64,000 bases of DNA from Azolla caroliniana (taxonomy: Eukaryota; Plantae; Polypodiophyta). Below are positions 11,065 to 59,183 of the stretch, one piece after another. The stretch's first letter is position 1; every line of letters begins with the position of its first letter. The position numbers were made by a program, and so were the translations under genes. A model generated the notes under the pieces. It was not told the origin of the DNA. It searched no databases and was given only the letters and a program-made list of their open reading frames with translations. The stretch lies in contig JBHGNT010000008.1 of assembly GCA_043228905.1 (NCBI GenBank), forward strand, positions 1,674,001 through 1,738,000, read 5' to 3'.

Positions 11065-14000
11065 TGACGGGAACTGCAACGCTCCTTATGCGCAACGCTC
11101 GGCCACAACCGAGCTTAGAATCATACACAGAAAACAGGAAACAAAAAAAAACACGCGACACAAAGGAGAGAAGAGTACACAAGATGTTTAACGTGGAAAA
11201 CCCCAAACTGGGGAAAAACCACGGCAGCCCATAGGTTGCAAACTATCACTAGGTTAGTATGTACAGCAGTGAGTTCACGGAGGCAACGACCTCGTGCTCA
11301 CGATCTTCGCCATAGGCGGCGGTTACAACAGAGGCAACGACCTCTTTCTCTCTCTCTCTCTCTCTCTGTACACTATTACGTGCTCTCTCTTCTTCTTCTT
11401 GCACCAACAAGAAAAATAACAACAACAGTTAATAAAAGTTTGCCCTAAGTCATATTTATACTAATATGACTTTTTGGCTATTTACAAATATAGCCTCGAT
11501 GGACTCTCAGAAACATATTTACGAATATGTCTCTTCATTCGGTTCTCACCGGGTCTGCACCATCCGGCTCTCCGTAGCCGGGTACTCCTCATCCGGATCT
11601 CACCGGGTCTGCACCATCCGGCTCTCCGTAGCCGGGTACTCCTCATCCGGTTCTCATCGGGTCTGCGTCATCCGGCTCTCCGTAGCCAGGTACTCCTCAT
11701 CCGGTTCTCACCGGGTCTGCGTCATCCGGCTCTCCATAGCCAAGTACTCCTCATCCGGTTCTGACCAGGTCTGCGTCATCCGGCTCTCCGTAGCCGGGTA
11801 CTCCTCATCCGGTTTCGGCCTCGGCCGAGTTTGTTCATCGGCACTGTTCTTCTCTCTTCCCATCCGGAGGGACCTGTCTCCCAACAAACTCCCCCTTCAC
11901 TCCGGCATGGGGTGTCTTACTAGTCCGATCCTCTTCCGGCATGCATTCAGATTGTCGGGTATTAGAACTTTGGTTAGCATATCTGACCCGTTCTCGGCCG
12001 TGTGGATCTTCGTCAGTGCGAACTCCTGGTCATCTACTCTTTCCCGGATCCAGTGATATCTTCGCTGGATATGCTTTGTCCGGGAATGGTAGGCCGCATT
12101 CTTAGCAAGATGGATGGCTCTTTGACTGTCACAATAGAGTCGATATTCATCTTGCCGGATACCGAGCTCTCCGATGAAGTCCTTCATCCATAATATTTCC
12201 TTGCCGGCTTCCACAGCTGCCATGTACTCCGCCTCTGTGGTTGACAATGCAACCGTCTTCTGCAACCTCGACTGCCACGAAACAGCTCCCCTTGCATATG
12301 TCATTACATACCCGGATGTAGACCGGCTGGTATCCACATCAGCCGACATGTCCGAATCGGTGAAACCGTCAAGTTGAGGTTTTCCGGAGCCGAATCGGAG
12401 ACACATATTTGAAGTGCCCTTCAAATACCGGAGTATCCATTTGACCGCGTTCCAGTGCTCCTTGCCGGGATTGCTCATGAACCGGCTCACCACTCCGACT
12501 GCGTATCCAATGTCCGGTCGGGTACAAACCATTGCGTACATCAAGCTCCCGACGGCAGAGGCATATGGAATCGTCACCATATCCGCCTTCTCTGCTTTCG
12601 TCTTCGGGCTTTGCTTACCGGATAGCTTTCAGTTTGCCGGAAGTTTCGATCCGACCGGTTTCGCATCTGTCATGTTGAACCAGTGAAGCACCTTTGTCAC
12701 GTACTTCTCCTGTGACAGCCATAATTGCTTCGCTGACCGGTCCCGAATGATGTGCATCCCCAACATCTGTCTTGCCGGACCCAAGTCTTTCATTGAGAAG
12801 GTCCGGTTGAGAGCCTTCTTCAGCATCCGTATTTTGACTTGGTCCCGTCCGACGATCAACATGTTGTCCACGTACAGAAGGAGTATCAGGAAGTTGCCTC
12901 CTTCGAACTTCTTCTCAAACACGCAGTGATCGGCCTGCGTCTTGTGGTACCCTTGATCGGTCATGAAGTAGTTGAACTTCCGGTACCATTGCCAGGGGGC
13001 CTGCTTTAACCCGTAGAGGCTCTTATTCAACCGGCAAACCAGGTGCTCCTTCCCTTTCTCCACGAATCCTTCCGGTTGCTGCATGTAGATCTCTTCTTCG
13101 AGGTCACCATGAAGGAATGCCGTCTTCACGTCTAGCTGCTCTACCTCGAGGTCCATGCTGGCCGCTATACTCAGCACCGTTCGGATGGAGGTCATCTTTA
13201 CTATCGGGGCAAATATCTCGTTGAAGTCCACGCCCTTCTTCTGCTGGAACCCCTTCACTACGATCTTGGCTTTGTATCTCGGGGGGTTGCTGGCATCTCC
13301 CGGTTTCAACTTGTACACCCACTTGTTTCGGAGTGCCCGCTTTCCTTTCAGCAACTCCACCAATTCGTACGTATGGTTCTCATGCAGGGAATCCATCTCA
13401 TCTTGCATGGCACTTAACCATTTTCGGTTGTGGGTGTCTTCCTTCGCTTCTTCGAAGCTTTTCGGCTCCCCCTCATCGGTGAGCAGAACATGCTCTGGAT
13501 CCGGAAATCTCCGGGGGGCCCTTCTCTCTCTGAGAGGATATCTCCGTCTCTGGGCTTCGGTAACCGGCTCCTCCATTTGCTCTTCATCCGAATCCGATTC
13601 GGGGTATTGGCCGGTTCCAGATTCGGCTTCCTCTACTTCTTCTTCAGCCTGTTCGGTATCCTCACCGTAATCGTCTGGTCCCTCGAGTGTTAACCGGTCT
13701 CTTGCCGGTTGGGTCTACTCATCGTAGAGTCGATCCTTACCGGTCGACTCGGAGTTCATTATCTTCTTCTCCGACTCCCAGTCGGCGAGCGTCTTGTTCC
13801 CCATGAAGATAATATCGCGACTCCGGAATACCTTCTTGTCAACCAGGTCCCACACTCGGTAGCCGAACTCATCGTCACCGTAACCGAGGAATATGCATGG
13901 CTGGGTCTTTGGATCTAACTTTCCTCTTCGGTCCTTAGCTACATGCACGTACGCGAGACATCCAAATACCTTCAGATGCCGGTAGGACACTTCCTTACCG

Positions 14001-16703
14001 GTCCACACTCTCTGTGGCGTGTCTCCGTCCAAGGGTACTGAGGGTGATCTATTTATCACATATGTCGCCGTCGACAATTCCTCAGCCCAAAACTTCTTGG
14101 GTAGTTTTGCATGCGCTAGCATACTCCGGACCCTCTCCATTATGGCTGGTTCATCCTCTCGACCAGTCCGTTTAGTTCCGGCGTCTTTGGCACGGTAAAT
14201 TTGAGCCGGATTCCCTTCGAGCGGTAGTACTCCTCGAATTGCCCCCGGTATTCTCCTCCGTTATCTGCTCGAACCGCCTTCAGCTTCCGGCCAGTTTCTC
14301 TTTCCACTCTCGCGTGGAGCTCTTTGAAGACGGATAGCACCTGATCCTTCGTCCTCAACGGTGTGGCCCACAGCTTGTGGCTCTGGTCATCTATGAACGT
14401 CATGAAGTACTGCGCTCCGACATGTGACTTCGTGTGTACCTGACACACATCCGCATGCACCAACTCCAGTGGTGCATTACGTCTCATCGGTGGCCTTGGT
14501 CGGAAGGAGGTTCGGTTTTTCTTACCGGCCAGACAATCAGTGCACTTCTCCAAGTGCACGTTCTTCACTGGAAGAGGTTGTCGTCTGCAAGCCTCTTCAT
14601 CCCCTTCTCGCTCATATGACACAGCCTCTTGTGCCACAGCTCACCGGCAGTGTCGTCTTGCTGAACTTCATGACACCGTTCCGGATGCTACCCGTGTAGC
14701 CCTGATCATCTAGCCGACCGGCAGATATCAGGTTCAGTCGAACTTCCGGAACGTGTCGGACATCCCTCAGCAGCAACTTGCATCCGGTTGGTGTCGACAG
14801 CTACACGTCTCCTATGCCGACAATTCGGCATGTACCTTCATTCCCTATCTGGACACAGCCGTGATCACCGGCTAAGTAGGATGAGAAGCATTTCCGGTCC
14901 GGGGTAAGGTGGAACGACGCTCCGGAGTCTACCACCCAGGTCATCTCGTCGCCGGCAAGGTTTATCTCACTCTCCTCGGTGATGAGCATCAACTCCTCTT
15001 CACTTGCCGCGATTGCCGTCGTTCCCTTCCGGTCCGGTCCCCTACGGTCTTTACCGTTCCGGTCCGGTGTCCTCTTCGAATCGGTGCCGTCGGTTTCCTT
15101 GTCTTTACGGAAGTGCCGACAGTTCTTCTGGAAGTGTCCCGGCTTGCCGCAATAGAAGCAAGTAGGCCTCCCCCTTGACTTTGACCGTGTCCCCGACTTC
15201 TCCCGGTTCTGGGGACTACGGTTTCTATGTCTTCCGCGTTCCGATTCGGTAAGGAGCGCTTTGGATTCGGAGCTCGTATCTCTGTCTTTCCGACGCGCCT
15301 CCTCATCTAGCAAGCTCGACTTTACTCTTGCTAGGGATAACCGTTTTGTTTCCGGCCAGGGCGTTGCCCAAAGTGACAACCAACGTCTCCCAGCTATCCA
15401 GGAGGGAACTGAGTAGGAGTAGCGCTAGTACCTCATCGGCGAGAGGTACTTCCAATGAAGTTGCCTGGTGGATCAGCCCCTGGAAGGCATTCATGTGCTC
15501 CGCCATGCTAGAGCCATCTTGGTACCGGAGTCTTACTAGCTTCAGGAATACCGAAACCTGATTAACAGCATTTTTGTTCTGAAACATTATGCCGATCTTC
15601 TCCCAGAGCTCATGAGCCTTGCTCTCTTCATTGAAGTTGTTGTACAGGCTCATGTCGATGAAGCACCATATGTACGTCGTGGTCTTCATGTGCATCACCT
15701 CCCATATCGCGACGTCGATTTTGTCCGGTCTCTTGTCCCCGAACTGAACCGGCAGACAAAGGTCTTTAACCACGAGCATGTCCCTCATGTTCGACTTCCA
15801 CACTGAATAGTTGGAGCCGGTGAGCTTGAACATGCCGCCAAACGATTCGTCCATTTTCTGTGTTGTTTCGCTCTGATACCACTTGACGGGAACTGCAACG
15901 CTCCTTATGCACAATGCTCGGCCACAACCGAGCTTAGAATCATACACAGAAAACAGGAAACAAAAAAAAACATGCGACACAAAGGAGAGAAGATTACATA
16001 GGATGTTTAACGTGGAAAACCCCAAACTGGGGAAAAACCACGGTAGCCCACAGGCTGCAAACTATCACTAGGTTAGTATGTACAACAGTGAGTTCACGGA
16101 GGCAACGACCTCGTGCTCACGATCTTCGCCACAGGCGGCGGTTACAACAGAGGCAACGACCTCTTTCTCTCTCTCTCTCTCTCTGTACACTGTTACGTCC
16201 TCTCTCTTCTTCTTCTTGCACCAACAAGAAAAATAACAACAACAGTTAATAAAAGTTTGCCCTAAGTCATATTTATACTAATATGACTTTTCGGCTATTT
16301 ACAAATATAGCCTCGATGGACTCTCAGAAACATATTTACGAATATGTCTCTTCATACGGTTCTCACCGGGTCTGCACCATCCGGCTCTCTGTAGCTGGGT
16401 ACTCCTCATCCGGATGTCACCGGGTCTGCACCATGCGGCTCTCCGTAGCCGGGCACTCCTCATCCGGTTCTCACCGGGTCTGCGTCATCCGGCTCTCCGT
16501 AGTTGGGTACTCCTCATCCGGTTCTCACCGGGTCTGCGTCATCGGGCTCTCCATAGCCGGGTACTCCTCATCCGGTTCTCACCGGGTCTGCGTCATCCGG
16601 CTCTCCGTAGCCGGGTACTCCCTATCCGGTTTCGGCCTTGGCCGAGTTTGATCATCGACACTTTTCTTCTCTCTTCCCATCCGGAGGGACCTGTCTCCCA
16701 ACA
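11065..16703 (-). mobile_element. Ty1/copia LTR retrotransposon (element C3), degenerate
   Basis: LTRs 11065-11886 and 15884-16703 (TGACGG...CCAACA). PBS TGGTATCAGAGC 15870-15881 (-); PPT 11887-11897. Gag-pol fragments 11897-15854, with a ~95-bp deletion near 14655 relative to C4. Confidence 0.93.
11536..11815. repeat. 54-bp CCGG-rich tandem repeats in C3/C4 LTRs (also ~16352-16625, 28928-29197, 33832-34155)
   Basis: Unit TCATCCGGTTCTCACCGGGTCTGCACCATCCGGCTCTCCGTAGCCGGGTACTCC, 5-6 copies per LTR. Confidence 0.92.
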
Positions 16704-17100
16704 AACTCCCCCTTCACTCCGGCATGGGGTGTCTTACTAGTTCGATCCTCTTCCGGCATGCATTCAGCTTGTTGGGTATTAGAACTTTTGTCAGCATATC
16801 TGACCCGTTCTCGGCCGTGTGGATCTTCGTCAGTGCGAACTCCTGGTCATCTACTCTTTCCCGGATCCAGTGATATCTTCGCTAGATATGCTTTGTCTGG
16901 GAATGGTAGGCTGCATTCTTAGCAAGATGGATGGCTCTTTGACTGTCACAATAGAGTCGGTATTCATCTTGCCGAATACCGAGCTCTCCGATGAAGTCCT
17001 TCATCCATAATATTTCCTTGCCGGCTTCCACAGCTGCCATGTACTCCGCCTCCGTGGTTGACAATGCAACCGTCTTCTGCAGCCTCGACTGCCACGAAAC
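16704..17100 (-). mobile_element. second copy of the C3 PPT and RNase H beyond its 5' LTR (truncated tandem unit)
   Basis: 16704-17100 repeats 11887-~12283 (PPT, RNase H STTEAEY...KHI) directly against the LTR, then breaks off at about 17100. Confidence 0.9.
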
Positions 17101-24229: not shown

Positions 24230-26299
24230 AATATCTCCAAGATTGCATGTGTTCTCAAATGCATAGTATGCTCGCTTACCCGCCTCTAAGCGGCATGTAA
24301 CACATTCATTCAATCTATGATTTGAAGGAACTTCAAGGCCAAGATATTTGAAGCTTTCCACACATTCAAGTGGCTCATTGTTGTACATAATGCATGGTTT
24401 ATCTCTTTTTTGGCCCTTTACAAGCATAATCTTTGTTTTAGAGCTATTGACACTAAATTTAGTGTTACCCGTAAGAATATACGGGGAGGCATAAGGGTAT
24501 GTGTAATGATGTGTATAATATGAATGAGTGTGTGAGGATGAACACATGCACATTTGTGTGCATGTGTACAAGGGTGAGAAAGTGGGTAAGTAATGTAACT
24601 CCCTACTTGACTCATTCTTTATTTGTAATGGTTACTTCTTGTACTATATAAACCCCACCCATGGGGCATAATGAAAAGATAACTTTTTCCCTCTTATTTT
24701 GGTGTCATTCTTATTTTCACTCTCTCCTTCTCTCTCTCTCTCTCTATCATAATCCCCTTGGCTTCACCCCCCACCCCAACAACACTTTTGGCATGAACGG
24801 TCGACCCCCTTGAGAGGAAGTCTATTCTCACTAATTTGTCTCTCCACCCTCTCTACTGATTGGTCTTTGTGTTAGAGAGTGTGATTTGTGTATAAACTCC
24901 CTATGAGATTGGCCTCCAATGACAATCATATGGCTATTTCTCTTGCGATTATGTCTAATGTATTCAAGGCCTGATGGATATGGCGAGGGGGGGCTGCTTA
25001 TCGTTTGCTAGCATAACTAGTCTCTGTGGTCTTCTCAACCCTTTCAGTCAGCAGAGCCATGGTGTGGCTTCACCCATGATGGGAAGGCGCTAGAGAGCAA
25101 CATTGGGAGATCTATGGCGGTGGTAGTATCAGCGATGGAGAAGGTCATCACCTGTCATCGTCTAGCAATCGGAAACCCATCAGGAAGAATGGGAAGATGT
25201 ATTCTAGCTTGCCCAACTCTCCTCACCTGCATAGGATTGAGGCTGCAGATGTATTCTAACGATCGAAAGGGCCCTACTAGATACCTGCGCATGTCAAGAT
25301 CCCGAAGGAGACAGTTCGAGGGGATGGATATGGCGTGGAATCGAGTGTGAAATGCGGAATCAGAAGGATCATGCAGAAGTGAGAATTAATGCATCTTCAC
25401 CTCCAAAGGTGCTTTTGAGGTACCTTTCTGCTCTGACTGTGAATCAAACTTCTTCTGATGAATATGCACAGCACAAGTCGTTAGATCATTGGTCGGTTAA
25501 ACCTAAACCTAACGAGATCTCTGTTCTCAAGGGACGACTCATGAGCTTGAAAGAAAGCTTCTTCCTACATGAATATAGCTTCCTCCTAAAAGAAAGCTAT
25601 CAGGAGACGAAATTCTACCCACGGGGCAGGATCCCGATGCACGAGCATGAAGACGAGAAGACGGCCGAGGGACCACCGACCTGTCGGATAGAGAAATCGG
25701 ATAGCCACAGAGAGAACCTGACTGACGGTCCGACAACGATGGATGTCGATGGTTGACAAACAGCTATCCGTCCGGATAGAATTCCGACAGATGGTATGGC
25801 CGGACAGACATTACGACAACTGACCAGAGGCGGCCGTATTGACCGGCCGACAACCGATGAATAGACGGCTGACGCGAGAGAGAGACAGAAAGAGGCATGG
25901 AGAGAGACAACTCTGCCCTCCAAGACCTCATGCCATGGTAGCATCAGGTCTTCTCCCCAATGGTCAGCAGACCATGCCATACCCACCATCAGATGCAGAC
26001 AAGGAAAAGAAAGAAGAAATGAAACATGAGACTAAGGAGAAACACAGGAGGCACACATTAGAGAAAGACAGAAGCTATAGAGAGGAGAAGAAGAAAGTGA
26101 CGATGATAGAAGATGCATTAAGAAAGAAGCAACAAACATAAAAGAAGAAAAAGGCAGAACTAATAGAGAAGAGACAAAGAGGAAGAAAGCAGAAGAACAA
26201 TGCAGGTCGAAAGAGGGAAAATAATCAAGAAGTAGCAGAAAGCAAGAGATTTTCTAGAAGAAAGTAGGAGAAAAGAAAGGATGCATTTGGATCAGAGTT

Positions 26300-26388
26300 C
26301 TCATGCCTCGATAAAGAGGCTTCATTCAGAGATTCTGGTGTCTTACCAAGGTGTTGAATCAATCACCGCAACTATGAAGAAGGCAAGA
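26300..26388 (+). pseudogene. captured DUF632-family (DUF630/632) gene fragment
   Basis: [31 protein letters not shown] resembles the DUF632 helix (IKxLHxxIxVxxQxVESIxxxIxKLRDEEL). Recognised from memory only. Confidence 0.55.
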
Positions 26389-26505
26389 GATGAACTCATC
26401 ATGGTTAGCCACATGAGACAGATGAAGAACAATGCCATAGTTTGCAACATTGGTCATTTTGACAATGAGATTGATATGTGCTGCTTCAGGAATTACCATG
26501 GAGTG
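26389..26505 (+). pseudogene. SAHH: captured S-adenosylhomocysteine hydrolase fragment
   Basis: [27 protein letters not shown] matches the highly conserved SAHH motif [19 protein letters not shown]. Confidence 0.9.
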
Positions 26506-28382
26506 ATATGTACATGGCTTGATCTCCATCAAATGGTCTAAACAATCGCCGCCACTGCCACCGCCGCCGCCATCCGCTAGAATCGAAAGGCTGAAGTACA
26601 AATTTAGAATTGGAGAATAGTTGGATTGCAAGTAAAAGGATTCAAGAAGGAGAAGAGGGGCATATAGAAAATTACAATAACTCGAGGGCACGCACTCGAA
26701 TTTTAGAAGCTCGAGGGTAGTAGAGAAGATTTCCAAAACCGGAGGATACCTAATAAAATTCTAAAAACGTGAGGGTAAAAATTAGAATTTTAAACTAAGG
26801 GGTACAAATCGTGAAATTTCGAAAACACAACTCACATGATAAAAGAAAGAATACACAAACGCACAACACGATTTCACAACCCATGCCACATTGAACTAGT
26901 CGATTGGTGTATGATCCAATCGCGACTTGTGCTGACCGAACGAGAAGGTTCGAGTCAAGAAAAGCTCCAATCGAAGTTATCAATCGTAGAGCAGTGATCC
27001 GGTCGAGGGATTTCCGACCGTTGAGGTGACCGATGGAGTTCCGGTCGAGAAGAGTTGTCATGGAGAGTGGGTTCACTGTGCAATGCACTGTCCCACAGGC
27101 GTGCCATGTGTTACCCGTAAGAATATACGGGGAGACATAAGGGTATGTGTAATGATGTGTATAATATGAATGAGTGTGTGATGATGAACACATGCACATT
27201 TGTGTGCATGTGTACAAAGGTGAGAAAGTGGGTAAGTAATGTAACTCCCTACTTGTCTCATTCTTTATTTGTAACGTTTACCTCTTGTACTATATAAACC
27301 CCACCCATGGGGCATAATGAAAAGATAACTTTTTCCCTCTTAGTTTGGTGTCATTATTATTTTCACTCTCTCCTTCTCTCTCTTTTTCGTAACCCCCTTG
27401 GGGGGGGGTTGAAGCCATTCTAAGCTTTACCCCCCACCCCAACAACATTTAGTATGCATGCAAATTTTTTCCAATGCCTTCATAAGGTTTTGTGCATCTC
27501 CTAAAGTATTTGCAAAAAACATTACATCATTTGCATATAGCAAAAGCATAATCACAACATTCCCAATGCCAACTTCTTCAATACATTCTTCCTTTGAAAA
27601 CTTGGTAACCATTTCTTCCAATTCATCAATGCATAGACCAAATAGTGTTGGTGAGAGTGGGCATCCTTGCTTAACACCAATAGTGCTTTTGAAAAAATCT
27701 GAAAGTTGATCTGTCATGCGTACACAACATATAACCTTCTCATAAATTCGGGAAATTGCAAGCATATATTCACTTGACACCTCAAGTTCTTCCATTCGCC
27801 TCCAAAGATGCTCACGAGGTACCATATCGAAAGCTTTCTTGAAGTTTGCAAAGTAACAATATAAACCTTTACCTCTAAGGCAACTTTCCTCCATTAATAC
27901 TTGAAGGGTGACAAGGTGATCAATGGTGCTATGGTGTTTTCGAAATCCAACTTGTCCATAAGCTCTCGTACCATTTTTTTAGCCCATACACTTATCTTTG
28001 ATTCCATTATACATCCAAATAGTTTTGCCATTAATGAGCCAACCATGATGGTTCCATAGTAACTGTTTACATTATTTACATCTCCACCTTTATGTAAAGG
28101 TTTGATCCAATTTGTAGTCCAATCGTATGACATAGTACCATGTTGCAATGCATCATTAAACATATCGCTTATCCATACATGTGCTTCCTTTCCCGTCCAT
28201 TTGAGCATTTCAGCCTTTATACATTGAAGATCGCTTGCCTTTCGAGAGGCCAATTTCTTAAGTCCTATGCATATATCTTCAATTGTAAAGATGAGACACA
28301 TATGTGAAAGAGAACCATAACACATCATCTTTCCAGCAAGAGATACCTCATATAAATTCTTACTATGCATAGACAAGTCGTG

Positions 28383-28441
<59 letters not shown>

Positions 28442-28462
28442 GGAGATACAGAAAGCTTTTTT

Positions 28463-31400
28463 TGACGGGAACTCAAGGCTCCTTATGTCCAACACTCGGC
28501 CACAACCGAGCTTCTTTTCATACGCAGAAAACAGGAAACAAATGCACGACACAGTGGAGAAGAAAAATAATAGTACACAGGAGGTTTACGTGGAAAACCC
28601 CAAACTAGGGGAAAAACCACGGCAGCCCACAGGCTGCAAACTGTCACTATGTGAGAATGTACAACAGTGAGTTCACTGAGGCAACGACCTCGTGCTCACA
28701 GATCTTCGCCACACGCGGCGGTTACAACAGAGGCAACGACCTCTTTCTCTCTCTCTCTGTACACTATTACGTGCTCTCTCTTCTTCTTGCACCAACAAAG
28801 GAAAAATGACAACAACAACAGTTACTAAAAGTTTGCCCTAAGTCATATTTATACTAATATGATTTTTCGGCTATTTACAAATGTAGCCTCAATGGGCTCT
28901 CAAAAACATATTTACGAATATGTCTCTTCATCCGGTTCTCACCGGGTCTGTACCCTCGGGCTCTCCGTAGCCGGGTACTCCTCATCCGGTTCATACCGGG
29001 CCTGCACCATCCAGCTCTCCGTAGCCGGGTATTCCTCATCCGGTTCATACCGGGCCTGCACCATCCGGCTCTCCGTAGCCGGGTACTCCTCATCCGGTTC
29101 ATACCGGGCCTGCACCATCCGGCTCTCCGTAGCCGGGTACTCCTCATCTGGTTCATATCGGGCCTGCACCATCCGGCTCTCCGTAGCCGGGTCCTCCTCA
29201 TACGGTTTCGGCCTCGGCCGAGTTTGTTCATCGGCACTGTTCTTCTTCCTTCCCATCCGGAGGGACCTGTTTCCCAACAAACTCCCCCTTCACTCCGGCA
29301 TGGGGTGTCTTACCAGCTCGATCTTCTTCCGGCATGCGTTCAGCTTGTCGGGTGTCAACACTTGGGTCAGCATATCTGACCCATTCTCGGTCGTGTGGAT
29401 CTTCGTCAATGCGAACTCCTGGTCATCTACTCTTTCCCGGATCCAGTGATACCTCCGCTGGATATGCTTCGTCCGGGAATGGTAGGCCGCATTCTTAACA
29501 AGGTGGATGGCACTTTGATTGTCGCAATAGAGTCGGTATTCCTCTTGCCGTTTACCGAGCTCTCCGATGAAGTCCTTCATCCATAAAATTTCCTTGCCGG
29601 CTTCCACAGCCGCCATGTACTCCGCCTCCGTGGTTGACAATGCAACCGTCTTCTACAGCCTCGACTGCCACGAAATAACTCCCCCTGCATATGTCATTAC
29701 ATACCCGGATGTAGACCGGCTGGTATCCACATCAGCCGACATGTCCGAATCGGTGAAACCGTCCAGTTGAGGTTTTCCGGAGCCAAATCGGAGACACATA
29801 TTTGAAGTGCCCTTCAAATACCGGAGTATCCATTTGACCGCGTTCCAGTGCTCCTTGCCGGGATTGCTCATAAACCGGCTCACCACTCCGACTGCGTATC
29901 CTATGTCCGGTCGAGTAGAAACCATTGCGTACATCAAGCTCCCGACGGTAGAGGCATATGGAATCTTCATCATATCCGCCTTCTCTGCTTTCATCTTTGG
30001 ACTTTGGTTACCGGACAGCTTGCAGTTTGCCGGAAGTGTCGATCCGACCAGTTTTGCTTCTGACATGTTGAACCGGTGAAGCACCTTTGTCACATACTTC
30101 TCCTGTGACAACCATAATTGCTTCACTGACCGGTCCCGAATGATGTGCATCCCCAACATCTGTCTTGCCGGACCCAAGTCTTTCATTGAGAAGGTTCGGT
30201 TGAGAGCCTTCTTCAGCATCCGTATTTTGCCTTGGTCTCGTCCGACGATCAACATGTCATCCACATATAGGAGGAGTATCAGGAAGTCCTCTCCTTCGAA
30301 CTTCTTCACAAACACGCAGTGATTGGCCTGCGTCTTGTGGTACCCTTGATCGGTCATGAAGGAGTCGAACTTCCGGTACCATTGCCGGGGAGCCTGCTTC
30401 AGTCCGTACAGGCTCTTCTTCAACCGGCATACCAGGTGCTCCTTCCCTTTCTCCACAAATCCTTCCGGTTGCTGCATGTAGATCTCCTCTTCGAGGTCGC
30501 CGTGAAGGAATGCCGTCTTCACGTACAGCTGCTCTACCTCGAGGTCCATGCTTGCTGCTATACTCAGCACCATCCGGATGGAGGTCATCTTTACTACCGG
30601 GACAAATATCTCGTCGAAGTCCACGCCCTTCTTCTGCTGGAACCCCTTCACCACGATCCTGGCTTTGTATCTCGGGGGGTTACCGGCATCTCCCGGTTTC
30701 AACTTGTACACCCACTTGTTTCGGAGTGCTCGCTTTCCTTTCGGCAACTCCACCAATTCGTACGTATGGTTCTCATGTAAGGAATCCATCTCATCCGGCA
30801 TGGCACTTAACCATTTTTGGTTGTGGGTGTCTTCCTTCGCTTCTTCGAAACTTTCCGGCTCCCCCTCATCGGTCAGCAGAACATGCTCTGCATCCGGAAA
30901 TCTTCGGGGCGCCCTTCTCTCTCTGAGAGGATATCTACGTCTTCGGGCTTCGGTAACCGGCTCCTCCATTTTCTCTTCATCCGAATCCGATTCAGGGTCT
31001 TTGCCGGTTCCGGTCTCAGCTTCCTCTACTTCTTCTTCTGCCGGTTCGGTATCCTCACCGTAACCGGCTGGTTCCTCGAGTTCTAACCGGTCTCTTGCCG
31101 GTTGGGTCTGCTCATCGTAGAGTCGATCCTTACCAGTCAACTCGGAGTTCATTATCTTCTTCTCCGACTCCCAGTCGGCGAGCGTCTTGTCCTCCATGAA
31201 GATAATATCTCGACTCCGGAATACCTTCTTGTCAACCGGGTCCCACACTCGGTAGCTGAACTCATCGTCACCGTAACCGAGGAATATGCATGGCCGGGTC
31301 TTTGGATCTAGCTTTCCTCTCCGGTCCTTAGCTACATGCACATACGCGAGACACCCGAACACCTTCAGATGCCGGTAGGATACTTCCTTACCGGTCCACA

Positions 31401-34217
31401 CTCTCTGTGGCGTGTCTCCGTCCAAGGGTACTGAGGGTGATCTATTTATCACGTATGTCGTCGTCGACAATTCCTCAGCCCAAAACTTCTTGGGTAGTTT
31501 TGCATGCGCTAGCATACTCCGGACCCTCTCCATTATGGTCCGGTTCATCCTCTCGGCCAGTCCGTTTAGTTCCGGCGTCTTCGGCACGGTAAATTCGAGC
31601 CGGATTCCCTTCGAGTGGCAGTACTCCTCGAACTGCCCCCGGTATTCTCCTCCGTTGTCTGCTCGAACCGCCTTCAGCTTCCGGCCGGTTTCTCTTTCCA
31701 CTCTCGCGTGGAGCTCTTTGAAGACGGATAACACCTGATCCTTCGTCTTCAGCGGTGTGGCCCACAACTTCCGGCTGTGGTCATCTATGAACGTCACGAA
31801 GTACTGTGCTCCGGCATGTGACTTCGTGTCTACTTGACACACATCCGTATGCACCAACTCCAGTGGTGCATTACGTCTCATCGGTGCCCTTGGTCGGAAG
31901 GAGGTCCGGTTCTGCTTACCGGCCAGACAATCAGTGCACTTCTCTAAGTGCACGTTCTTCACTGGAATGAGGTTGTCGTCTGCAAGCCTCTTCATCCCCT
32001 TCTCGCTCATATGACACAACATCTTGTGCCACAGCTCACCGGTAGTGTCAGATGCCACGTTCACTTCTTCCGGACATAACCGGGCATTCATCAGGTACAA
32101 CGTGTTGACCTTCTGGGCCCGAGCCACAATCCGGCTCCCTTTGTTCAACTTCATGACCCCGTTCCGGATGCTACCCGTGTAGCCTTCATCATCTAGCCGA
32201 CCGACTGATATCAGGTTCAGACGAACCTCCGGAACGTGTCGGACATCCTTCAACAGCAACTTGCATCCTGTTGGTGTTGACAGCCACACGTCTCCTATGC
32301 CGATAATTCGGCATGTACCTTCATTTCCCATCCGGACACAACCGTGGTCACCGGCTAAGTAGGATGAGAAGCATTTCCGGTCCGGGGTAAGGTGGAACGA
32401 CGCTCCGGAGTCTACCACCCAGGTCATCTCGTCGCCGGCAAGGTTTATCTCACTCTCATCGGTGATGAGCATCAACTCTTCTTCACTTGCTGCGATTGCC
32501 GTCGTTCCCTTCCGGTCCATCCCCTTCCGGTCTTTACCGTTCCGGTCCGGGGTTTGCTTCGAATCGGTACGGTCGGTTTCCTTGTCTTTACGGAAATGCC
32601 GACAGTTCTTTTGGAAGTGTCCCGGCTTGCCGCAATAGAAGCAAGTAGGCCTCCCCCTTGACTTTGACCGTGTCCCCGACTTCTCCCGGTTCTGAGGACT
32701 ACGGTTTCTATGTCTTTCGCGTTCAGATTCGGTAAGGAGCGCTTTGGAGTCGGAGCTCGTATCTTTATCCTTCCGATGCGCCTCCTCATCTAGCAAGCTC
32801 GACTTTACTCTTGCTAGGGATAACCATTTTCCTTCCGGCCCGGCGTTGCCCAAAGTGACAACCAACGTCTCCCAGCTATCCGGGAGGGAACCGAGTAGGA
32901 GTAGCGCTAATACCTCATCGGCAAGAGGTACTTCCAATGACGTTGCCTGGTGTATCAGCCCCTGGAAGGCATTCATATGCTCCGCCATGCTGGAGCCATC
33001 TTGGTACCGGAGTCTTACTAGCTTCCGGAATACCGAAACCTGATTAACAACATTTTTGTTTTGAAACATTATGCCGATCTTCTCCCAGAGCTCATGAGCC
33101 TTGCTGTCTTCATTGAAGTTGTTGTACAGGCTCATGTCGATGAAGCACCGTATGTACGCCGTTGTCTTCATGTGCATCACCTCCCATATCGTGGCGTCGA
33201 TTTTGTCCGGTCTCTTGTCCCCGAACTGAACCGGCAACCAGAGGTCTTTAACAACGAGCATGTCCCTCATCTTCGACTTCCATACTGAATAGTTGGAGCC
33301 GGTGAGCTTGAACATGCCGCCAAATGATTCGTCCATTTTCCGTGTCAACCTCGCTCTGATACCACTTGACGGGAACTCAAGGCTCCTTATGTCCAACACT
33401 CGGCCACAACCGAGCTTCTTTTCATACGCAGAAAATGGGAAACAAATGCACGACACAGTGGAGAAGAAAAATAATAGTACACAGGAGGTTTACGTGGAAA
33501 ACCCCAAACTAGGGGAAAAACCACGGCAGCCCACAGGCTGCAAACTGTCACTATGTGAGAATGTACAACAGTGAGTTCACTGAGGCAACGACCTCGTGCT
33601 CACAGATCTTCGCCACACACGACGGTTACAACAGAGGCAACGACCTCTTTCTCTCTCTCTCTGTACACTATTACGTGCTCTCTCTTCTTCTTGCACCAAC
33701 AAAGGAAAAATGACAACAACAACAGTTACTAAAAGTTTTCCCTAAGTCATATTTATACTAATATGACTTTTCGGCTATTTACAAATGTAGCCTCGATGGG
33801 CTCTCAGAAACATATTTACGAATATGTCTCTTCATCCGGTTCTCACCGGGTCTGTACTATCCGGCTCTCCGTAGCCGGATACTCCTCATCCGGTTCATAC
33901 CGAGCCTGCACCATCCGGCTCTCCGTAGCCGGGTACTCCTCATCCGGTTCATACGGGGCCTGCACCATCCGGCTCTCCGTAGCCGGGTACTCCTCATCCG
34001 GTTCATACCGGGCCTGCACCATCCGGCTCTCCGTAGCCGGGTACTCCTCATCCGGTTCATACCGGGCCTGCACCATCCGGCTCTCCGTAGCCGGGTACTC
34101 CTCATCTGGTTCATACCGGGTCTGTACCATCCGGCTCTCCGTAGCTGGGTCCTCATACGGTTTGTTCATCGGCACTGTTCTTCTTCCTTCCCATCCGGAG
34201 GGACCTGTTTCCCAACT
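28463..34217 (-). mobile_element. Ty1/copia LTR retrotransposon (element C4), near-intact, inserted in the C5 3' LTR
   Basis: LTRs 28463-29279 and 33367-34217; PBS 33353-33364 (-); PPT 29280-29290; TSD TTTTT. Same family as C3. Confidence 0.95.
29290..33336 (-). pseudogene. copia Gag-Pol polyprotein of C4 with a single in-frame stop (29653-29655)
   Basis: Continuous ORF from MDESFGG through CFYCGKPGH, WVVDSGAS, HTDVC, YGLKQAPRQW and YVDDML to ...WQSRL*. RNase H continues in frame to 29290. Confidence 0.93.
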
Positions 34218-36840: not shown

Positions 36841-39063
36841 TAATTGTATTTATACTTATACACACTATGGGCTATTTACAAATATGTCTAGTATTATTAT
36901 TGTCTGCTAATAACACTAACAATCCATAATCAACCAATTGATCAACTAGTCAATTCAACTAGTCGGGTCTAGTGTTGACTGAGCGACTAGTCGATCAATT
37001 ATTCCGCCTTGTCGTCGACCCTCTAGTCGGCCCGACTAGTTGGTCTTGTCTTTGACTTGGATCGTCTACTGTTGACTGTCTCTTAGTTGACTCACCCAGT
37101 CAACTCTCATTGTCTTCAATTGTCGGCTCTCTACCCGACTAGTCGGTTACTCCTTGTCTTCGAACGTTGGATCTCGGGCCAACCAGTCGGCTCCTCCCAT
37201 AGAAGGGACATATTCCTAACACTTTAGTAGTCTCATCATTCAAGGGAGATAAGAAAGAAAGTACCAAGGAGGCCATCAACATTTGGCTTGGTCGTTGGGA
37301 GTCTCACTTTTAGCTTCATCCCAAATCAGAAGTTGTAAACATTGGTTATGTCAGCCATGAGTTCGGTGGCCAAGCTGATGCTTGGTGGCGTGGCCTAAGG
37401 ACTGCAAAGAACTTACCCACAACTTGGGAAGGTTTCGTCAATGTTTTCAAGAAACGGTTCTTGCAGCCACCTTCTCAAATCGAACAAGCGCAACACTTGA
37501 TCACGTTGTTGAGTAAGCCATTTACCTCTCTCGAGGATTATGTGCATCGTGCTTCGACCCAAATCCAAAAATTGGGACTCACGGGTGAGAAATGGTTTGT
37601 CGCTTGTTTTTTGAATGGTATTCCCAATGGCAATTGCCATTGAATCTTCCATGACAAGGACCCCGCAACTTTTGAGGAAGCAGTCAACATTGTATTCCGG
37701 TACCATAGGACTTCCAAGAAAGACTACAATAAACCTGAGTTCGCCAAATCTCCGGATGTCAAGTTCATTGGGAAATGTAAGCAATCTAGTGACATTCTTG
37801 ACCGTGACTCAAAGAAATTGAACCTCTTTTGTGTGTATTGCAAGAAGCAGGGCCACACAAAGGATAGTTGTCGTCATCTTGAGAGAAGTCAATGAACAAC
37901 CCTACTCAGGACAAATCTATGAGTCACACGTGTGAGGCTTTTGATGTTATTGAAGTTCATACCAACCATTTAAGTTCATGTGAATGCACTTTTCCTTCAC
38001 ATTTACTTGGACCTAATGATTTACTTCGACCACTCGGGTATATCAATGGAACACAAGCACATTTCTTGTTTAATTCAGGTAGTTCTCACGGTTTTCTTAA
38101 TGATCACTTGGTGCAACAAATGCAACTCCACATAAACGCAAGTGATCATATCTAAACATTTTATTCAATGTGTTGTTGGGGTGGGGGGTGAAGCCATTCT
38201 ATAGCTTCACCCCCCTGCCAAGGGGGTTACATGTGTGCGAAAGAGAGAAGTAAAGAAAAATTGAGAATGACACAAAAATGTGAGGGGAAAAATGTCTTTT
38301 CATTACATGCCCATAAGGGGTTTATATAATACATCTAATGTAACGGTTACATGACCATTATAAATAAGACCGTTACACATTCTTGTACACATGCACATAA
38401 TTGTGCATGTGTCCATACACATACTCACACACTCATTTACTTTACACATACACATTAACCACACCATTACACCTACCCTTATGCCTCCCCGTATATTCTT
38501 ATAGGTAGCACATGGCACGCCTGTGGGACAGTGCCTTGCACGGTGAACCCAATCGCCATGGCAACTCTTCTCGATCGGAACTCCATCGATCGTCTCAATG
38601 GTCGGAAATCCCTTGACCGGATCACTGCTCTATGATCGATAACTTCGATCAGAGCTTTGCTTGACTCGAACCTTCTTGTTGAGTCAGCATAAGTCGCAAT
38701 TGGATCATACACCAATCAACTAGTTCAATGTGGCATGGGTCGTGAAATCGTGTTGTGCGTTTGTGTATTTTTTATTTCATAATGTGAGTTGTGATTTCGA
38801 CATTTCATGATTTGTACCCCTCAGTTTTTTTTTTCTTAAAATTATATTAAGTACCCTCCGGTTTTAGAAATTTTATGTCCTGCCCTTCTGTTCCCGAAAT
38901 TTGTTTGCGTGCCTTCAAGTTTCTGAAATTTTCTTCTTGCCCCTTTCTCTTTTCTTTCTTTTCGATTTTTGAAATTCCCTTGTTCACCCTTGGCATTTTG
39001 AAATTTGTCTTCTACCCTCGAGCTTTTGAAATTCGAGTGTGTGCCCTCAATTTTCTGAAATTT

Positions 39064-39473
39064 TGGAAGACCAACAGAAACCTCAAGGCCATAATCATCC
39101 GCAACTTGTTTCATAAGAGAGTTAACTTGATCTTCAGGGGTAGAAAGAGATGTGCTTCCAACCATGGCCTACTCAACAAACTCAGCCTGGACCTCCATAT
39201 TGACAAACGTCTGTTCAAACTAATCCATGGTCTGGGATATATCTTCTGGATATTTCCCAGAGCAAGGGCGTTATTGAGAGCTTTAACTATATCGGACATG
39301 GATTTGTTTATGGTCTGCATATTGCTCTGTGTGTTGAGGCGAAATATCACTGCGTCAAGGCGACATAATTCAACTGCTCATTTCTCTTACGAATTGTGCT
39401 CTTGGCGTAGATCCGAGCTCCATCCATGTTCCCTTTCTTGATGGCTTTCTTGACCTTGACCTTTTCGCTCTTC
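39064..39473 (-). pseudogene. CHMP1: captured ESCRT-III CHMP1/VPS46 coding fragment
   Basis: [23 protein letters not shown]...RLDAV...NKSMSDIVKAL...[32 protein letters not shown]; frameshifted, with no intron visible over ~410 bp. Confidence 0.9.
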
Positions 39474-39494
39474 TGTACAAGGTTGTTTGAGCCA

Positions 39495-39630
39495 GATCTA
39501 GTTTTCACGCTGGATAAGCTCAACAAATTGTCTGCAAAGGACCTTGTGCTAGGGCTGGGCTGATCATGTCCTTGTTGTTGATGGCTATAGCATCCCTTAG
39601 AAGATTGCCATCCAGATCTCTGGGGATGAA
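39495..39630 (-). pseudogene. possible captured F-box gene fragment
   Basis: Reading through stops gives PEIWMAIF...[16 protein letters not shown], an F-box-like pattern. Confidence 0.4.
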
Positions 39631-42600
39631 GACGGTGTCTTCTTCGACTTCTTCGTCTTCTTCTTGGAAGACGCTACAACACTCGTGAGACACCGTGGAT
39701 GAGGCGTCAACAAGAGCACACATATATAAGACTCAGCCTGATGATCTGCAGGAAAGGGATGCAGATGAGTTATCACTCCCATGATTATGTTCCATTCCGG
39801 ATGCCTCCCCAAAAGGCATATGAGTGCAGCAAGCATTCCTCCAGTGGCAGCAACTATGGTCGCTGGACATTTCTACTATTGTCGCTCTTTCTTCCTGCTT
39901 CCCTCAACAAAACTAGGCTCCCGTAGCGGGGAGATCGGGAAGAGATGGAGGAGGAGAAGGAGAAGATCAGAAAAAAGGAAGAAAATGGAGGAAGAATCAT
40001 CCGTGCGAACAGGGAAGATTCCATCAAGAAGAAGTTCATGCCCAGATAACCGCGTAGTGAGCTAGCATCTGAGGGTTTCTTGTAGATGCCAAAGTCATCC
40101 TCTGACAGGTCGCTGCACTTGGGTTCTCTAAGAGAGTAGCAACAACAGGGGAAAAGGAAGTGGAAAGGAAGAAGGCCCAGCCTCTCCCGATCTCAGATCA
40201 TATTCATCGCCACGCTCGTGTCTCATGTATGTAAGGTCTGGCCGAGGAGGAGCAGGCAACATTATGGATGATACATTGTAACATTCCCTGTGGTGTGCTT
40301 ATGAATGAATTTGCATGAGGAATGAAGAGGTTCCTCTGAACAAGGTAGAGAAAGGAGAACACAGGAAGGCTCTCAACATAGAGACTACATGGACAAACGA
40401 CGATACTCTCTTCTGACACAGACACAAACAAACACACATAGAGATGGAGAGAGAGATTTGTGATGGAGAGGGGGAGTGAGACTTCTTCTCAAGGGAGGTC
40501 GTCCCAGCGGGGCGTGCCAAAAGTGCTGTTGGGGTGGGGGGTGAAGCTCAAAGGGGTTACAATAGGGAGAGAGCTAGAGAGAGAGACATAGAAACAACAC
40601 CAAAATGAGAGGGAAAAATGTATATATCATTACATGCCCATAAGGGGTTTATAAAATACATCCATTGTAATGGTTACATGACTGTTATAAATAAGACCGT
40701 TACGCATTCTTGCACACATGCACATAATTGTGCATGTGTCCATACACATACTCACACACTCATTTAGTTTACACATACACATCAACCACATCATTACACC
40801 TACCCTTATGCCTCCCTGTATATTCTTACAAGTAACACAAAGTTCCAAACTTCCTTCTCTTTCACTTGTGTCTTATAAATCTTTAAGTGAGCATTCTCGT
40901 TTATCAATTTATTCGTGTGTAATTGATCTTGCGCTTCAATTTTATTATTTTAATATTGACGCCACACAATTGCCACATTATGAAGGACAATTACTCGACT
41001 CTATTTTAGACGATTTTCAAGATGTGTTTCCTAACGATCTTTACCACCAAAACGTAATGTGGACCATCAGATTGAACTCATCCCCTGTGCTGCTCCTGTG
41101 AGCATTCCATCTTGTCGACTTAGTCGATTAAAAGAGGATGAGGTCGATTAGGTATAGTAAATCACCTTGGGTTGCGCCAATTTTGTTTGTTAAGAAGAAA
41201 GAAGGTTCATGATGAATGTGTATCAATTATCGTCGTTTGAATAAAATGACAATAAAAAATGCATGTTCGTTACCTCGTGCCGATGATTTGATTGATCATT
41301 TGCATGGGGCTAGATATTTTACGAAAATTGACTTACAAAAAGGTTATCATCAGATTCGCATTGCCGAAGATAATATTCTCTTCCTGGATTGCTCATGAAC
41401 CGGCTGACCACTCCGACTGCATATCTGATATCCGGTCGTGTGCACACCATTGCACACATCAAACTTCTGACAATAGAGGCATATGGTATCTTCATCATTT
41501 CCGACTTCTCTGCGTTTGTCTTCGGACTTCCGGACAACTTGCAATTTTCTGGAAGTATTGACCCGACCGGCTTAGCATTCGTCATGCTGAATCGTTGGAG
41601 CACCTTCATCACATACTTCTCTTGTGACAACCATAACTGCTTCTTCGTCCGGTCTTGGACTATGTGCATCCTCAAAATCTGTCTTGCCGGTTCCATATCT
41701 TTCATTGCAAAGGACCGGCTCAAGGCCTTCTTCAGCATTCCGATTTAGATACGGTCTCGTCCGACGATCAACATGTCATCCACGTACAATAGTAGTATCA
41801 GAAAATCCCCTCCGACAAACCTCTTCACAAATATGCAGTGGTTGGCTTGCGTCTTGTGGTATCCTTGGTCGGTCATGAAGGAGTCGAACTTCCGGTACCA
41901 TTGCCGAGGATCTTGCTTCACTCTGTGTAAGATCTTCTTCAACTGGCACACCAGGTGCTCCTTCCCTTTCTTGACAAACCCGTTTGGTTGTTGCATGTAG
42001 ATCTCTTCTTTGAGGTCACCATGTAGGAACGTCGTCTTGACAACTAGCCACTCGACCTCGAGGTCAACGCTTGCCGCAATGCTCAAACACAGTCCAGATG
42101 AATGTCATCTTTACTACCGGGGCAAAGATCTCATCGAAATTCACTCCTTTCTTCTATTGGAAGGCCTTCACCACAATTCAGGCCTTATACCTTGGTGGAT
42201 TTCCTGCGTCTCCTGGTTTCAACTTGTGCACCCATTTGTTCCGGAGCGCTCTCTTTCCTTTCGGCAGCTCCGTCAGTTCATATGTGTGGTTCTCATGTAG
42301 GGAATCCATCTCATCCTACATGGCACTTAACCACCTGCGGTTGTGAGTGTCTTTCTTTGCTTCTTCAAAGCTTCCTAGCTCCCCCTCTTTGGTTAGTAAA
42401 ACGTGCTCTGCATCCAGAAATCTCTGGGGGGCTTTCTCTCTCTAAGAGGATATCTTTGTCCTTGGTTTCCGACCACCAGTTCCTCTGCCTGTTCTTCATT
42501 TGAATTTGTTTCAGGGTCTTGACTGATTCCGGTGTCCAATTCTTCTCCTTCGGTTGGTTTGGTTCCTCATCCGAATCTAGCCGGTTCATCATGGTCCTCG

Positions 42601-53985: not shown

Positions 53986-54150
53986 ATGAAGACCCGGTTC
54001 CGGAGCCGGATAATGAAGACCCGGTTCCGGAGCCGGATGATGAAGACCCGGTTCCGGATCCGGATGATGAAGACCCGGTTCCGGATCCGGATAATGAAGA
54101 CCCCGGTTCCGGATCCGGATGATGAAGACCCCGGCTACGGAGCCGGATGA
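53986..54150. repeat. 27-bp CCGG-rich tandem repeats in C7 LTRs (also ~58801-58965)
   Basis: Unit ATGAAGACCCGGTTCCGGA(G/T)CCGGAT(A/G), about 6 copies. Confidence 0.92.
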
Positions 54151-54333
54151 CGAATGTACCCGGAGAGAGATCCGGATGCGGGGACATATTTGTGAATATG
54201 TTTGCCAAGGGCCCTTGAGGCTATATTTGTAAATAGCCCGAAAGTCATATGTGTATAAATATGACTTAGGGCAAACAGTTTTGTTGTTGTTGCTCATTTT
54301 TCTGTTTTCACTTAGAGAGAGTGAAGAGAGCAG

Positions 54334-54368
<35 letters not shown>

Positions 54369-54663
54369 GAAGAGGTCGTTGCCTCTGTGTATTACCGCCG
54401 CCTGTGGCGAAGACAGTGAGCTCAAGGTTGTTGCCTTGTAGCTTCACCATTGTACATCTCTGTTTGTAGTGATAGTTGGAGTTTGAGGACTCCCGTGGTT
54501 TTTTCCCATTTAGGGTTTTCCACGTAAAACATCCAGTGTACTCTTCTCTCTATAGACTTCGTGCATTTTGTATTTCCTGTTTTCTGTGAGTTAATCATAT
54601 TCCTCGGTTGTGGCCAAGCATTGTGCTCAACAAAGTGGTATCAGAGCGACGGCAGTGCAGAAA

Positions 54664-59148: not shown

Positions 59149-59183
<35 letters not shown>

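What the first reader, a model, noticed from the sequence alone, without database searches (positions are those of the whole stretch)
24785..27108. Same element family carries different host-gene cargo in one variable slot
Seen: copies A and B share LTRs, a short region after the PBS and ~450 bp before the 3' LTR (26650-27108 vs 38511-39060). The sequence between these is unrelated. A carries DUF632-like and SAHH fragments; B carries CHMP1 and a possible F-box fragment. All are in element-sense orientation and end near the shared block. Established: LTR elements can capture mRNA by template switching. Inference: this is a Pack-MULE-like, LTR-based exon-shuffling vehicle with a preferred capture position, and the unidentified internal stretches (e.g. 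24950-25600) may be more cargo.
Basis: partly seen in the sequence, partly recalled or inferred. Interest (0 to 1): 0.75.

Follow-up and report, generated by a model that had tools for sequence, protein, structure and literature searches.

The report
Retrotransposons priming both strands with tRNA
These two copies belong to a gene-fragment-carrying family of plant jumping genes whose whole lineage has a copy of a tRNA end where the usual second-strand primer (a purine tract) should be, so they likely start both DNA strands from a host tRNA, a way of copying not found in the papers searched.

Summary
The cargo observation holds. A (24463-27447, +) and B (38171-40837, -) are non-autonomous Ty3/gypsy-type copies. 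Across 26 copies the ends are shared and the middle varies. Identified cargo is sense in 12 of 12 cases, lacks introns where testable (tubulin, HSP70, EF1B) and includes 18S rRNA, so it was captured from RNA, as in maize Bs1. The F-box call is not supported, and the 'slot' is the whole dispensable interior.

The larger finding lies in the shared 3' block. It has no polypurine tract. Instead a 17-nt copy of the 3' end of host tRNA-Arg(UCU), a covarying hairpin and a T-arm match sit 2 nt before the 3' LTR. The pattern has 1,720 exact genomic matches (control 0), including intact autonomous elements. One family's 5' PBS fits a different tRNA. Six independent loci keep a mature tRNA-Arg(UCU) copy (with CCA, up to about 60 nt) fused to an LTR start; in five the LTR is followed by a PBS. 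This is the expected trace of an unremoved plus-strand primer. Best reading: tRNA-primed second-strand synthesis (about 0.8; inferred, no bench test). Ten literature searches found no description.

The parts
24458..24462 (.). Target-site duplication TTTAG, left of copy A (repeated at 27448-27452)
24463..24784 (+). Copy A 5' LTR (TG...CA)
24785..24806 (+). 4-nt spacer CTTT plus degenerate first-strand PBS for tRNA-Arg(UCU)
24807..24984 (+). 5' leader shared with a subset of family copies
24990..25072 (+). Cargo: sense piece of an intact host gene (L103), 87% identical; cellulose-synthase-like name recalled from its motifs, not from a tool
25078..25566 (+). Cargo: sense piece of an intact host gene (L099) with short deletions; TRM/LONGIFOLIA-like name recalled from a VARLMGL motif, not from a tool
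25567..26309 (+). Unresolved interior; two short pieces (25876-25993, 26200-26272) recur at other loci, most of them family copies
26310..26394 (+). Cargo: DUF632 gene piece, 96% to an exon of intact gene L089
26396..26506 (+). Cargo: SAHH piece, 93% to an exon of intact gene L086, in frame with the DUF632 piece; same junction in copy L085
26547..27068 (+). Conserved 3' block; its last 400-500 bp are shared by all 26 compared copies
27069..27108 (+). Likely plus-strand primer site of A: T-arm match, 4-bp hairpin, 17-nt copy of the tRNA-Arg(UCU) 3' end (27090-27106), 2-nt spacer TG; no purine tract
27109..27447 (+). Copy A 3' LTR
40524..40837 (-). Copy B 5' LTR
40502..40523 (-). Copy B spacer CTTT and first-strand PBS for tRNA-Arg(UCU), near full 18-nt register
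39870..40400 (-). Copy B interior shared with sister copies L081/L343 and L352; parents not identified
39467..39869 (-).
39065..39466 (-). Cargo: CHMP1 coding piece with frameshifts and stops; parent gene not found in the assembly
38551..39064 (-). Copy B conserved 3' block
38511..38550 (-). Likely plus-strand primer site of B (17-nt tRNA copy at 38513-38529, hairpin, T-arm match, 2-nt spacer)
38171..38510 (-). Copy B 3' LTR

Best explanation
A and B are non-autonomous copies of a Ty3/gypsy lineage that has a copy of the tRNA-Arg(UCU) 3' end instead of a polypurine tract before the 3' LTR, and that likely primes its second DNA strand with that host tRNA. Shown: anatomy, conservation, and tRNA copies fused to LTR starts. 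Inferred steps: (1) a tRNA primes the first strand at the 5' PBS, which is sometimes rewritten from the tRNA; (2) once the minus strand has copied the 3' site, it exposes a site that would pair tRNA nt 59-76 (one C bulged at the acceptor/T-stem border), loop out a 4-bp hairpin at the 58/59 border and pair nt 51-57; (3) a second tRNA would prime there, adding 2 nt and then U3; RNase H would normally remove it and integrase clip the 2 nt; when removal fails, the tRNA is copied onto the left end; (4) only the two ends are needed in cis, so during minus-strand synthesis the polymerase likely switches onto co-packaged cellular RNAs, chaining sense, spliced fragments into the interior; (5) because the 3' site complements the end of plus strong-stop DNA, mis-jumps likely give the copies that carry the helper's 3' part inverted.
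For: No purine run over 5 nt before the 3' LTR in 38 of 38 fetched copies; 36 of 38 carry the 17-mer with at most 3 mismatches; the spacer is 2 nt in 60 of 61 sites. Four other LTR ends in the window have ordinary purine tracts. 1,720 exact genomic matches to tRNA copy + 2 nt + TGTT, reversed control 0. 20 sampled matches fall in 6 LTR clusters distinct from A's and include autonomous elements with 98.7-100% identical LTRs over the aligned part and an intact 1,952-aa gag-pol frame. The same site occurs at 80 places in 79 metagenome contigs; 74 of these match fetched host loci at only 66-92%. Hairpin: 306 of 396 Watson-Crick cells vs shuffle mean 227, max 251, with double-sided changes. In the L137 family the 5' PBS matches tRNA-Arg(UCG) for 13 nt, so the 3' site cannot pair with its own PBS. 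The 5' PBS is the exact 18-nt tRNA complement at 12 of 97 listed sites (counted by eye). The first 100 listed 3'-type sites are all 1 nt short, and none of the 7 exact 18-nt hits is a 3' site. Six independent loci have an 18-63 nt tRNA-Arg(UCU) copy with CCA and the extra C, joined by the family's 2-nt spacer to an LTR start; in five a PBS follows that LTR. At the C20 locus the copy is the A isoform while the element's own site is G. Cargo: 12 of 12 identified sources sense (p 2e-4); GT-AG introns absent for tubulin (376 nt) and HSP70 (239 nt), and two EF1B introns absent against paralogs. Helper link: L029 and L033 join A-type LTRs to the helper's leader; L044, L068 and L070 join them to its inverted 3' end with the PBS now the exact 18 nt.
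Against: No biochemical or read-level test. The tRNA copies are rare (6 events against about 1,700 normal sites) and could also arise if the minus strand switched onto a tRNA as template. Hairpin wobble does not favour either strand (14 G-T vs 10 A-C cells), and the shuffle does not control for relatedness. Left ends that keep the element's own 17-nt sequence (the RNA-remnant model) were looked for only at 103 sites: 7 hits, all in metagenome contigs where the two LTRs may be collapsed and none in own-genome loci, a sample too small to exclude them. One of five displayed host tRNA gene copies has CCA in the genome. A's four cargo pieces each lie within one exon, so intron loss is shown only in sister copies. 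Direct parents of the CHMP1 and EF1B cargo were not found.
Confidence: 0.8

Rival explanations
1. The element's own RNA at the 3' site (a tRNA-half mimic) resists RNase H and primes the plus strand like a PPT; the tRNA copies at LTR starts come from rare template switches onto tRNA.
For: The sense RNA could fold a T-stem-like hairpin; wobble pairs do not favour the minus strand; needs no second tRNA in the particle.
Against: Retained left-end sequence is the host tRNA (18 nt, different isoform at C20, read-through up to tRNA nt 14), not the element's 17-mer, and sits on LTRs followed by a PBS whose elements keep a normal 3' site. Common variants in the T-arm match are mostly those that keep wobble pairing with the tRNA, and the position opposite nt 58 is free.
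Confidence: 0.13
2. The 3' site pairs with the element's own 5' PBS (panhandle or self-priming), or is a packaging or circularisation signal, with plus-strand priming elsewhere.
For: In A/B and the L065 family the two sites are complementary for about 9-17 nt. Drosophila Gypsy and Ty3 use 3' tRNA sites that are not plus-strand primers (PMC1635307, discussion).
Against: In the L137 family the 5' PBS fits tRNA-Arg(UCG) and cannot pair with the 3' site. The site is 2 nt from the LTR at 60 of 61 sites, which fixes the left end, and no purine tract is near. Gypsy's 3' site binds tRNA on the RNA, whereas this one is tRNA-identical on the RNA.
Confidence: 0.05
3. The cargo was gained at DNA level (gap repair, as in Pack-MULEs) or by later independent insertions.
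For: A's pieces are single-exon, so they do not by themselves prove RNA origin; junction microhomology is short or untestable.
Against: Precise intron loss in tubulin and HSP70 cargo, two more introns in EF1B, 18S rRNA cargo, 12 of 12 sense, and shared cargo chains at separate insertion sites (L085 with A; L081 with B; four EF1B copies).
Confidence: 0.05

Closest known systems
Non-chromovirus Ty3/gypsy lineages (Athila, Tat, Phygy, Selgy; Neumann et al. 2019, PMC6317226: passages, section 13, supplementary file 5)
   Same: gag-RT-RH-INT order, no chromodomain hit, about 9-10 kb, 5-bp TSD, tRNA-Arg PBS after a 4-5 nt spacer, extra ORF after pol. RT relatives are in liverworts, ferns and conifers.
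   Different: No polypurine tract; a tRNA-identical site with hairpin instead. No second RNase H hit (unlike Tat), TSD not 4 bp (unlike Phygy, Selgy, TatI), sense extra ORF and Arg primer (unlike typical Athila). The paper lists three first-strand primer types and a PPT for the second strand; the parts read mention no tRNA for the second strand.
Drosophila Gypsy and yeast Ty3 with 5' and 3' primer-binding sites (PMC1635307: abstract and discussion)
   Same: A tRNA-related site near each end of the element.
   Different: There the 3' site binds tRNA on the genomic RNA, and in Gypsy it is not needed for cDNA synthesis. Here the 3' site is identical to the tRNA, so only the minus strand can bind it, and it replaces the PPT.
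[quoted passage not shown]
   Same: Non-autonomous LTR elements carrying pieces of several host genes, template switching proposed, in-frame chimeras possible.
   Different: Here a family of several hundred candidates differs in cargo from copy to copy, includes rRNA, and has the unusual second-strand site.
Helenus, Ajax, Cassandra TRIMs (PMC10886601: abstract and passages)
   Same: Non-autonomous LTR elements with small-RNA-derived sequence.
   Different: Their tRNA or 5S sequence is inside the LTR as a promoter and they keep a PPT; the author reports it does not prime.
Pack-MULE / Pack-TIR elements (search listing and recall)
   Same: Many copies, each with different chained gene fragments.
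   Different: DNA transposons with DNA-level capture; here LTRs, 5-bp TSD and spliced sense cargo.

Membership tests
LTR retrotransposon (non-autonomous) | Direct LTRs with TG...CA ends and a 4-6 bp TSD | tested here: met
   A: TTTAG TSD; exact 5-bp TSDs also seen at L017, L019, L029, L030, L034, L042
LTR retrotransposon (non-autonomous) | PBS after the 5' LTR | tested here: met
   tRNA-Arg(UCU) complement after CTTT, often degenerate
LTR retrotransposon (canonical) | Polypurine tract before the 3' LTR | tested here: not met
   Longest purine run at most 5 nt in 38 of 38; tRNA copy instead; controls have PPTs
Ty3/gypsy (autonomous partner) | gag, RT, RNase H, integrase in RT-RH-INT order | tested here: met
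   L137 single 1,952-aa frame; protease had no Pfam hit
Tat clade | Extra archaeal-type RNase H | tested here: not met
   No second RNase H family in the L137 frames at E 0.01
Phygy / Selgy / TatI | 4-bp TSD; PBS for Trp or Ala | tested here: not met
   5-bp TSDs at L061 and L065; Arg PBS
Athila | RT/RH/INT placement with Athila references | not testable with these tools
   Reference FASTA too large to read. The tree shows a 9-row clade (99/99), sister to a fern protein, without lineage labels
Athila | PBS mostly Asp/Asn/Ala; extra ORF, if present, antisense | tested here: not met
   Arg PBS and sense extra ORF of about 980 aa
Chromovirus | Chromodomain | tested here: not met
Bs1-like RNA-level gene capture | Cargo spliced and in sense | tested here: met
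   (sister copies; A's own pieces are single-exon)
Pack-MULE | TIRs, 8-11 bp TSD, DNA-level capture | tested here: not met
   LTRs, 5-bp TSD, spliced cargo; Pack-MULE features recalled
tRNA-primed plus strand (proposed) | tRNA covalently at the 5' end of plus-strand DNA | not testable with these tools
   Only genomic traces at six loci

The most novel reading that the evidence does not exclude
A widespread, recently active Ty3/gypsy clade of ferns has replaced the polypurine tract with a structured tRNA-binding site on the minus strand and primes both DNA strands with host tRNAs, in some families two different tRNAs. This symmetry lets its non-autonomous vehicles flip helper segments while they chain host RNA fragments.
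Probability: 0.75. Interest if true: 0.88.

Novelty: new variant of a known kind. Interest (0 to 1): 0.8.

Why it matters
PPT-primed second-strand synthesis is treated as near-universal for LTR retrotransposons and retroviruses (PMC10886601 introduction, PMC6317226 background). A natural lineage of over a thousand copies that uses a tRNA on the minus-strand DNA would show a second solution and raise testable questions: how RNase H removes a second tRNA, why the site keeps one bulge and a hairpin at the nt 58/59 border, and whether tRNA fragments regulate both steps. Such elements could be mis-oriented or down-scored by tools that look for a PPT. The cargo side adds a large natural record of RNA capture in a seed-free plant, but that part is of a known kind.

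Tried and rejected
Opposite orientation of the family (suggested by L044, where pol runs the other way): rejected, because intact autonomous elements have the 4-nt-spacer PBS upstream of gag-pol, and L044, L068 and L070 are inversion chimeras. Self-pairing of the two sites: rejected by the L137 family. F-box in B: no support. CHMP1 parent gene: four own-genome searches and one comparison found none; absence not shown. Direct EF1B parent not found; paralogs at 75-80% were used. The first tubulin intron (about 100 nt) appears in the search pieces but was not resolved cleanly by my alignment, so only the 376-nt one is counted as precise. Strand of the hairpin: wobble counts uninformative. RNA evidence: no RNA holder listed, so no reads were laid. 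Atlas look-ups of the extra ORF and of L083 gave only weak leads under 0.8. The TSD tally was faulty (missed overlapping LTR ends) and is not used. L150's RT was too short for the tree and was dropped; it is 47-63% identical to L137 pol and not nested. Of the 40 hits, those ending in the 4-nt 5' spacer were set aside as first-strand sites; L317, L344 and L018 are 3' sites with a 1-nt insertion; L310, L314, L321, L334, L340 and L341 read as 5' PBSs; L322 is unresolved. Literature: 10 searches listed no paper describing a tRNA-primed plus strand or an inverted PBS in place of the PPT; most subscription papers and Repbase entries are outside the library, and two large supplements of PMC6317226 could not be read.
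Full report
Observation. Self-BLAST and alignment give two copies: A at 24463-27447 (+; LTRs 95.9% identical; TSD TTTAG) and B at 38171-40837 (-; 90.2%; TSD 4 of 5). They share LTRs, a short stretch after the PBS and the 3' block; the interiors are unrelated. A search with the 3' block found 795 candidates in a 523-Mb genome. I fetched the 38 other top-scoring copies. Among 26 copies with both LTRs, the last 400-500 bp are shared by all, the first 100-200 bp by a subset, and most of the middle by 0-3 others. The best named matches of the CHMP1 cargo include fern proteins at 69-72%, so the host is likely a fern (inference).

Cargo. A carries four sense pieces of intact host genes: 24990-25072 (L103), 25078-25566 (L099), DUF632 at 26310-26394 (L089) and SAHH at 26396-26506 (L086). 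The names of the first two are recalled from motifs. Each piece lies inside one exon. Copy L085 has the same DUF632/SAHH junction. B carries CHMP1 and a piece of an unnamed ORF that is not an F-box by any test; sister copy L081/L343 has the same chain.

Pfam on 141 sense and 135 antisense stop-free segments from 18 copies (only 1.5 kb of four long ones) gave seven sense hits in six copies: tubulin twice, HSP70, cytochrome b5, SpoU, FAE1 twice. Antisense gave one sub-threshold DUF3915 hit and two hits to a nested copia. One of 14 loci scanned with Rfam holds 530 bp of 18S rRNA in sense. Counting distinct identified sources, 12 of 12 are sense (p 2e-4; 0.002 if DUF3915 is counted). Tubulin cargo lacks a 376-nt GT-AG intron and HSP70 cargo a 239-nt one. 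EF1B cargo, present in four copies, lacks two introns relative to 75-80% identical paralogs. Capture from RNA is therefore well supported and is of the known Bs1 kind (PMC13317346, passages).

The 3' block. Directly before the 3' LTR there is no purine tract: the longest purine run is at most 5 nt in 38 of 38 copies. Instead 36 of 38 have, within 3 mismatches, a 17-nt copy of the 3' end of tRNA-Arg(UCU), and the spacer to the LTR is 2 nt in 60 of 61 sites. Four other LTR ends in the window have ordinary purine tracts. The exact pattern occurs 1,720 times in the genome, reversed control 0.

Autonomous partners. An RT search and a PBS search led to autonomous gypsy elements with the same two ends and 5-bp TSDs. 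Twenty sites sampled from the first 100 listed fall in six LTR clusters distinct from A's. L137 and L139 have LTRs identical over the aligned part, a frame of about 1,950 aa (gag, RT, RNase H, integrase; no second RNase H, no chromodomain in L137) and a sense extra ORF of about 1,000 aa. Nine RT rows from such elements form one clade (99/99), sister to a fern protein, among liverwort, fern and conifer relatives. The same site occurs at 80 places in 79 metagenome contigs, 74 of which match fetched host loci at only 66-92%, so it extends beyond the families sampled here.

Anatomy of the site. Read on the minus strand it is: complement of tRNA nt 59-76 minus one C of the C65/C66 pair; a 4-bp hairpin; then the complement of nt 51-58 (tRNA numbering by convention). 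Stems covary (GTGC/GCAC, GTAC/GTAC, GGAC/GTCC, GGGC/GCCC and others): 306 of 396 cells are Watson-Crick in 99 of 101 unique sites, against a shuffle mean of 227 and maximum of 251; the shuffle ignores relatedness. The position opposite nt 58 varies freely, and the commonest changes elsewhere keep wobble pairing with the tRNA. Wobble in the stem does not favour either strand.

Which strand it primes. The 5' PBS is the exact 18-nt complement at 12 of 97 distinct listed sites (100 of 153 rows shown, counted by eye), as expected when the first-strand primer is copied. The first 100 listed 3'-type sites are all 1 nt short. In the L137 family the 5' PBS matches tRNA-Arg(UCG) for 13 nt, so the two sites of one element cannot pair.

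tRNA copies at LTR starts. The 7 exact 18-nt hits are not 3' sites: one is a 5' PBS and six are three events in which a tRNA copy is fused to an LTR start. Widening to one mismatch (40 hits) added three events. The six are:
(1) C2, 12.01 Mb: tRNA nt 20-76, TG, 5' LTR, UCG-type PBS and a full element; triplicated locally.
(2) C16: LTR end and spacer, 18 nt, AG, LTR, twice, then PBS and gag-pol.
(3) C20: partial U3, 18 nt of the A isoform, TG, 5' LTR, while the element's own site is the 17-nt G form.
(4) L337: nt 28-76 before the 5' LTR of a short non-autonomous element whose own 3' site is the 17-nt form.
(5) L331: 18 nt with one mismatch, LTR, PBS.
(6) L342: nt 14-76 between two LTRs; 5' status not shown.
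All include CCA, which four of five displayed host genes lack. This is the product expected when a plus-strand tRNA primer is not removed and is copied at the left end; the 18-nt forms end where the methylated A58 would stop the polymerase (established knowledge). None belongs to the A/B family itself, so the extension to A and B rests on the shared site.

Helper link and inversions. L029 and L033 join A-type LTRs to the helper's leader in sense. L044, L068 and L070 join A-type LTRs to the helper's 3' end inverted, with the former 3' site now serving as 5' PBS and reading the exact 18 nt. A mis-jump of plus strong-stop DNA onto the 3' site would give this (inference).

Comparison. Neumann et al. 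list three first-strand primer types and a PPT for the second strand (PMC6317226: passages, section 13, supplementary file 5). The elements fail defining features of Tat, Phygy, Selgy and chromoviruses and differ from typical Athila; placement against references could not be run. Gypsy and Ty3 have 3' tRNA sites that bind on the RNA, and Gypsy's is dispensable for cDNA (PMC1635307: abstract, discussion). Helenus carries tRNA sequence in the LTR and keeps a PPT (PMC10886601: abstract, passages). Ten searches listed no description of this arrangement; for all other papers I saw listings only, and the library is incomplete.

Verdict. The shared block reveals a gypsy lineage without a PPT that most likely primes both strands with tRNA (0.8). 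Main rival: priming by the element's own RNA remnant (0.13), weakly tested. Interest 0.8.

Noticed in passing
window 11065-17100, 28462-34216, 53933-59449: Related LTR elements with ordinary purine tracts and 54-bp tandem repeats in their LTRs; a 1,278-codon open frame at 29653-33489; LTRs of the last copy 99.7% identical.
   Followed up: partly
window 27453-28340 (-): Copy A's right flank looks by eye like a decayed LINE reverse transcriptase region; not tested.
   Followed up: no
window 37250-38160: Copy B's flank looks by eye like a decayed gag-protease region of another gypsy element; not tested.
   Followed up: no
L300:4992-5039, L301:5005-5060, L297, L302, L303, L305: tRNA-Arg copies of 39-56 nt read through at sites with a 4-nt spacer, taken as first-strand PBSs; in L300 and L301 they are followed by jumps into pol.
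   Followed up: partly
L304:4947-8410: Cluster of 11 full or partial tRNA-Arg(UCU) gene copies in 3.5 kb.
   Followed up: no
L137:6274-9210: Sense extra ORF of 979 aa, conserved across families; no Pfam hit, only a weak plant-mobile-domain lead at score 0.75.
   Followed up: partly
   Followed up: partly
L310, L321, L334, L341: A subfamily related to A/B whose 5' PBS follows the LTR after only 2 nt instead of 4.
   Followed up: no
G000:C2:12004000-12024000: Local tandem amplification of an element together with its tRNA-fused left end and flank, 99.6-99.9% identical.
   Followed up: partly
L027:7178-7707: 530 bp of 18S rRNA captured in sense inside a family copy, followed by further host pieces.
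   Followed up: yes
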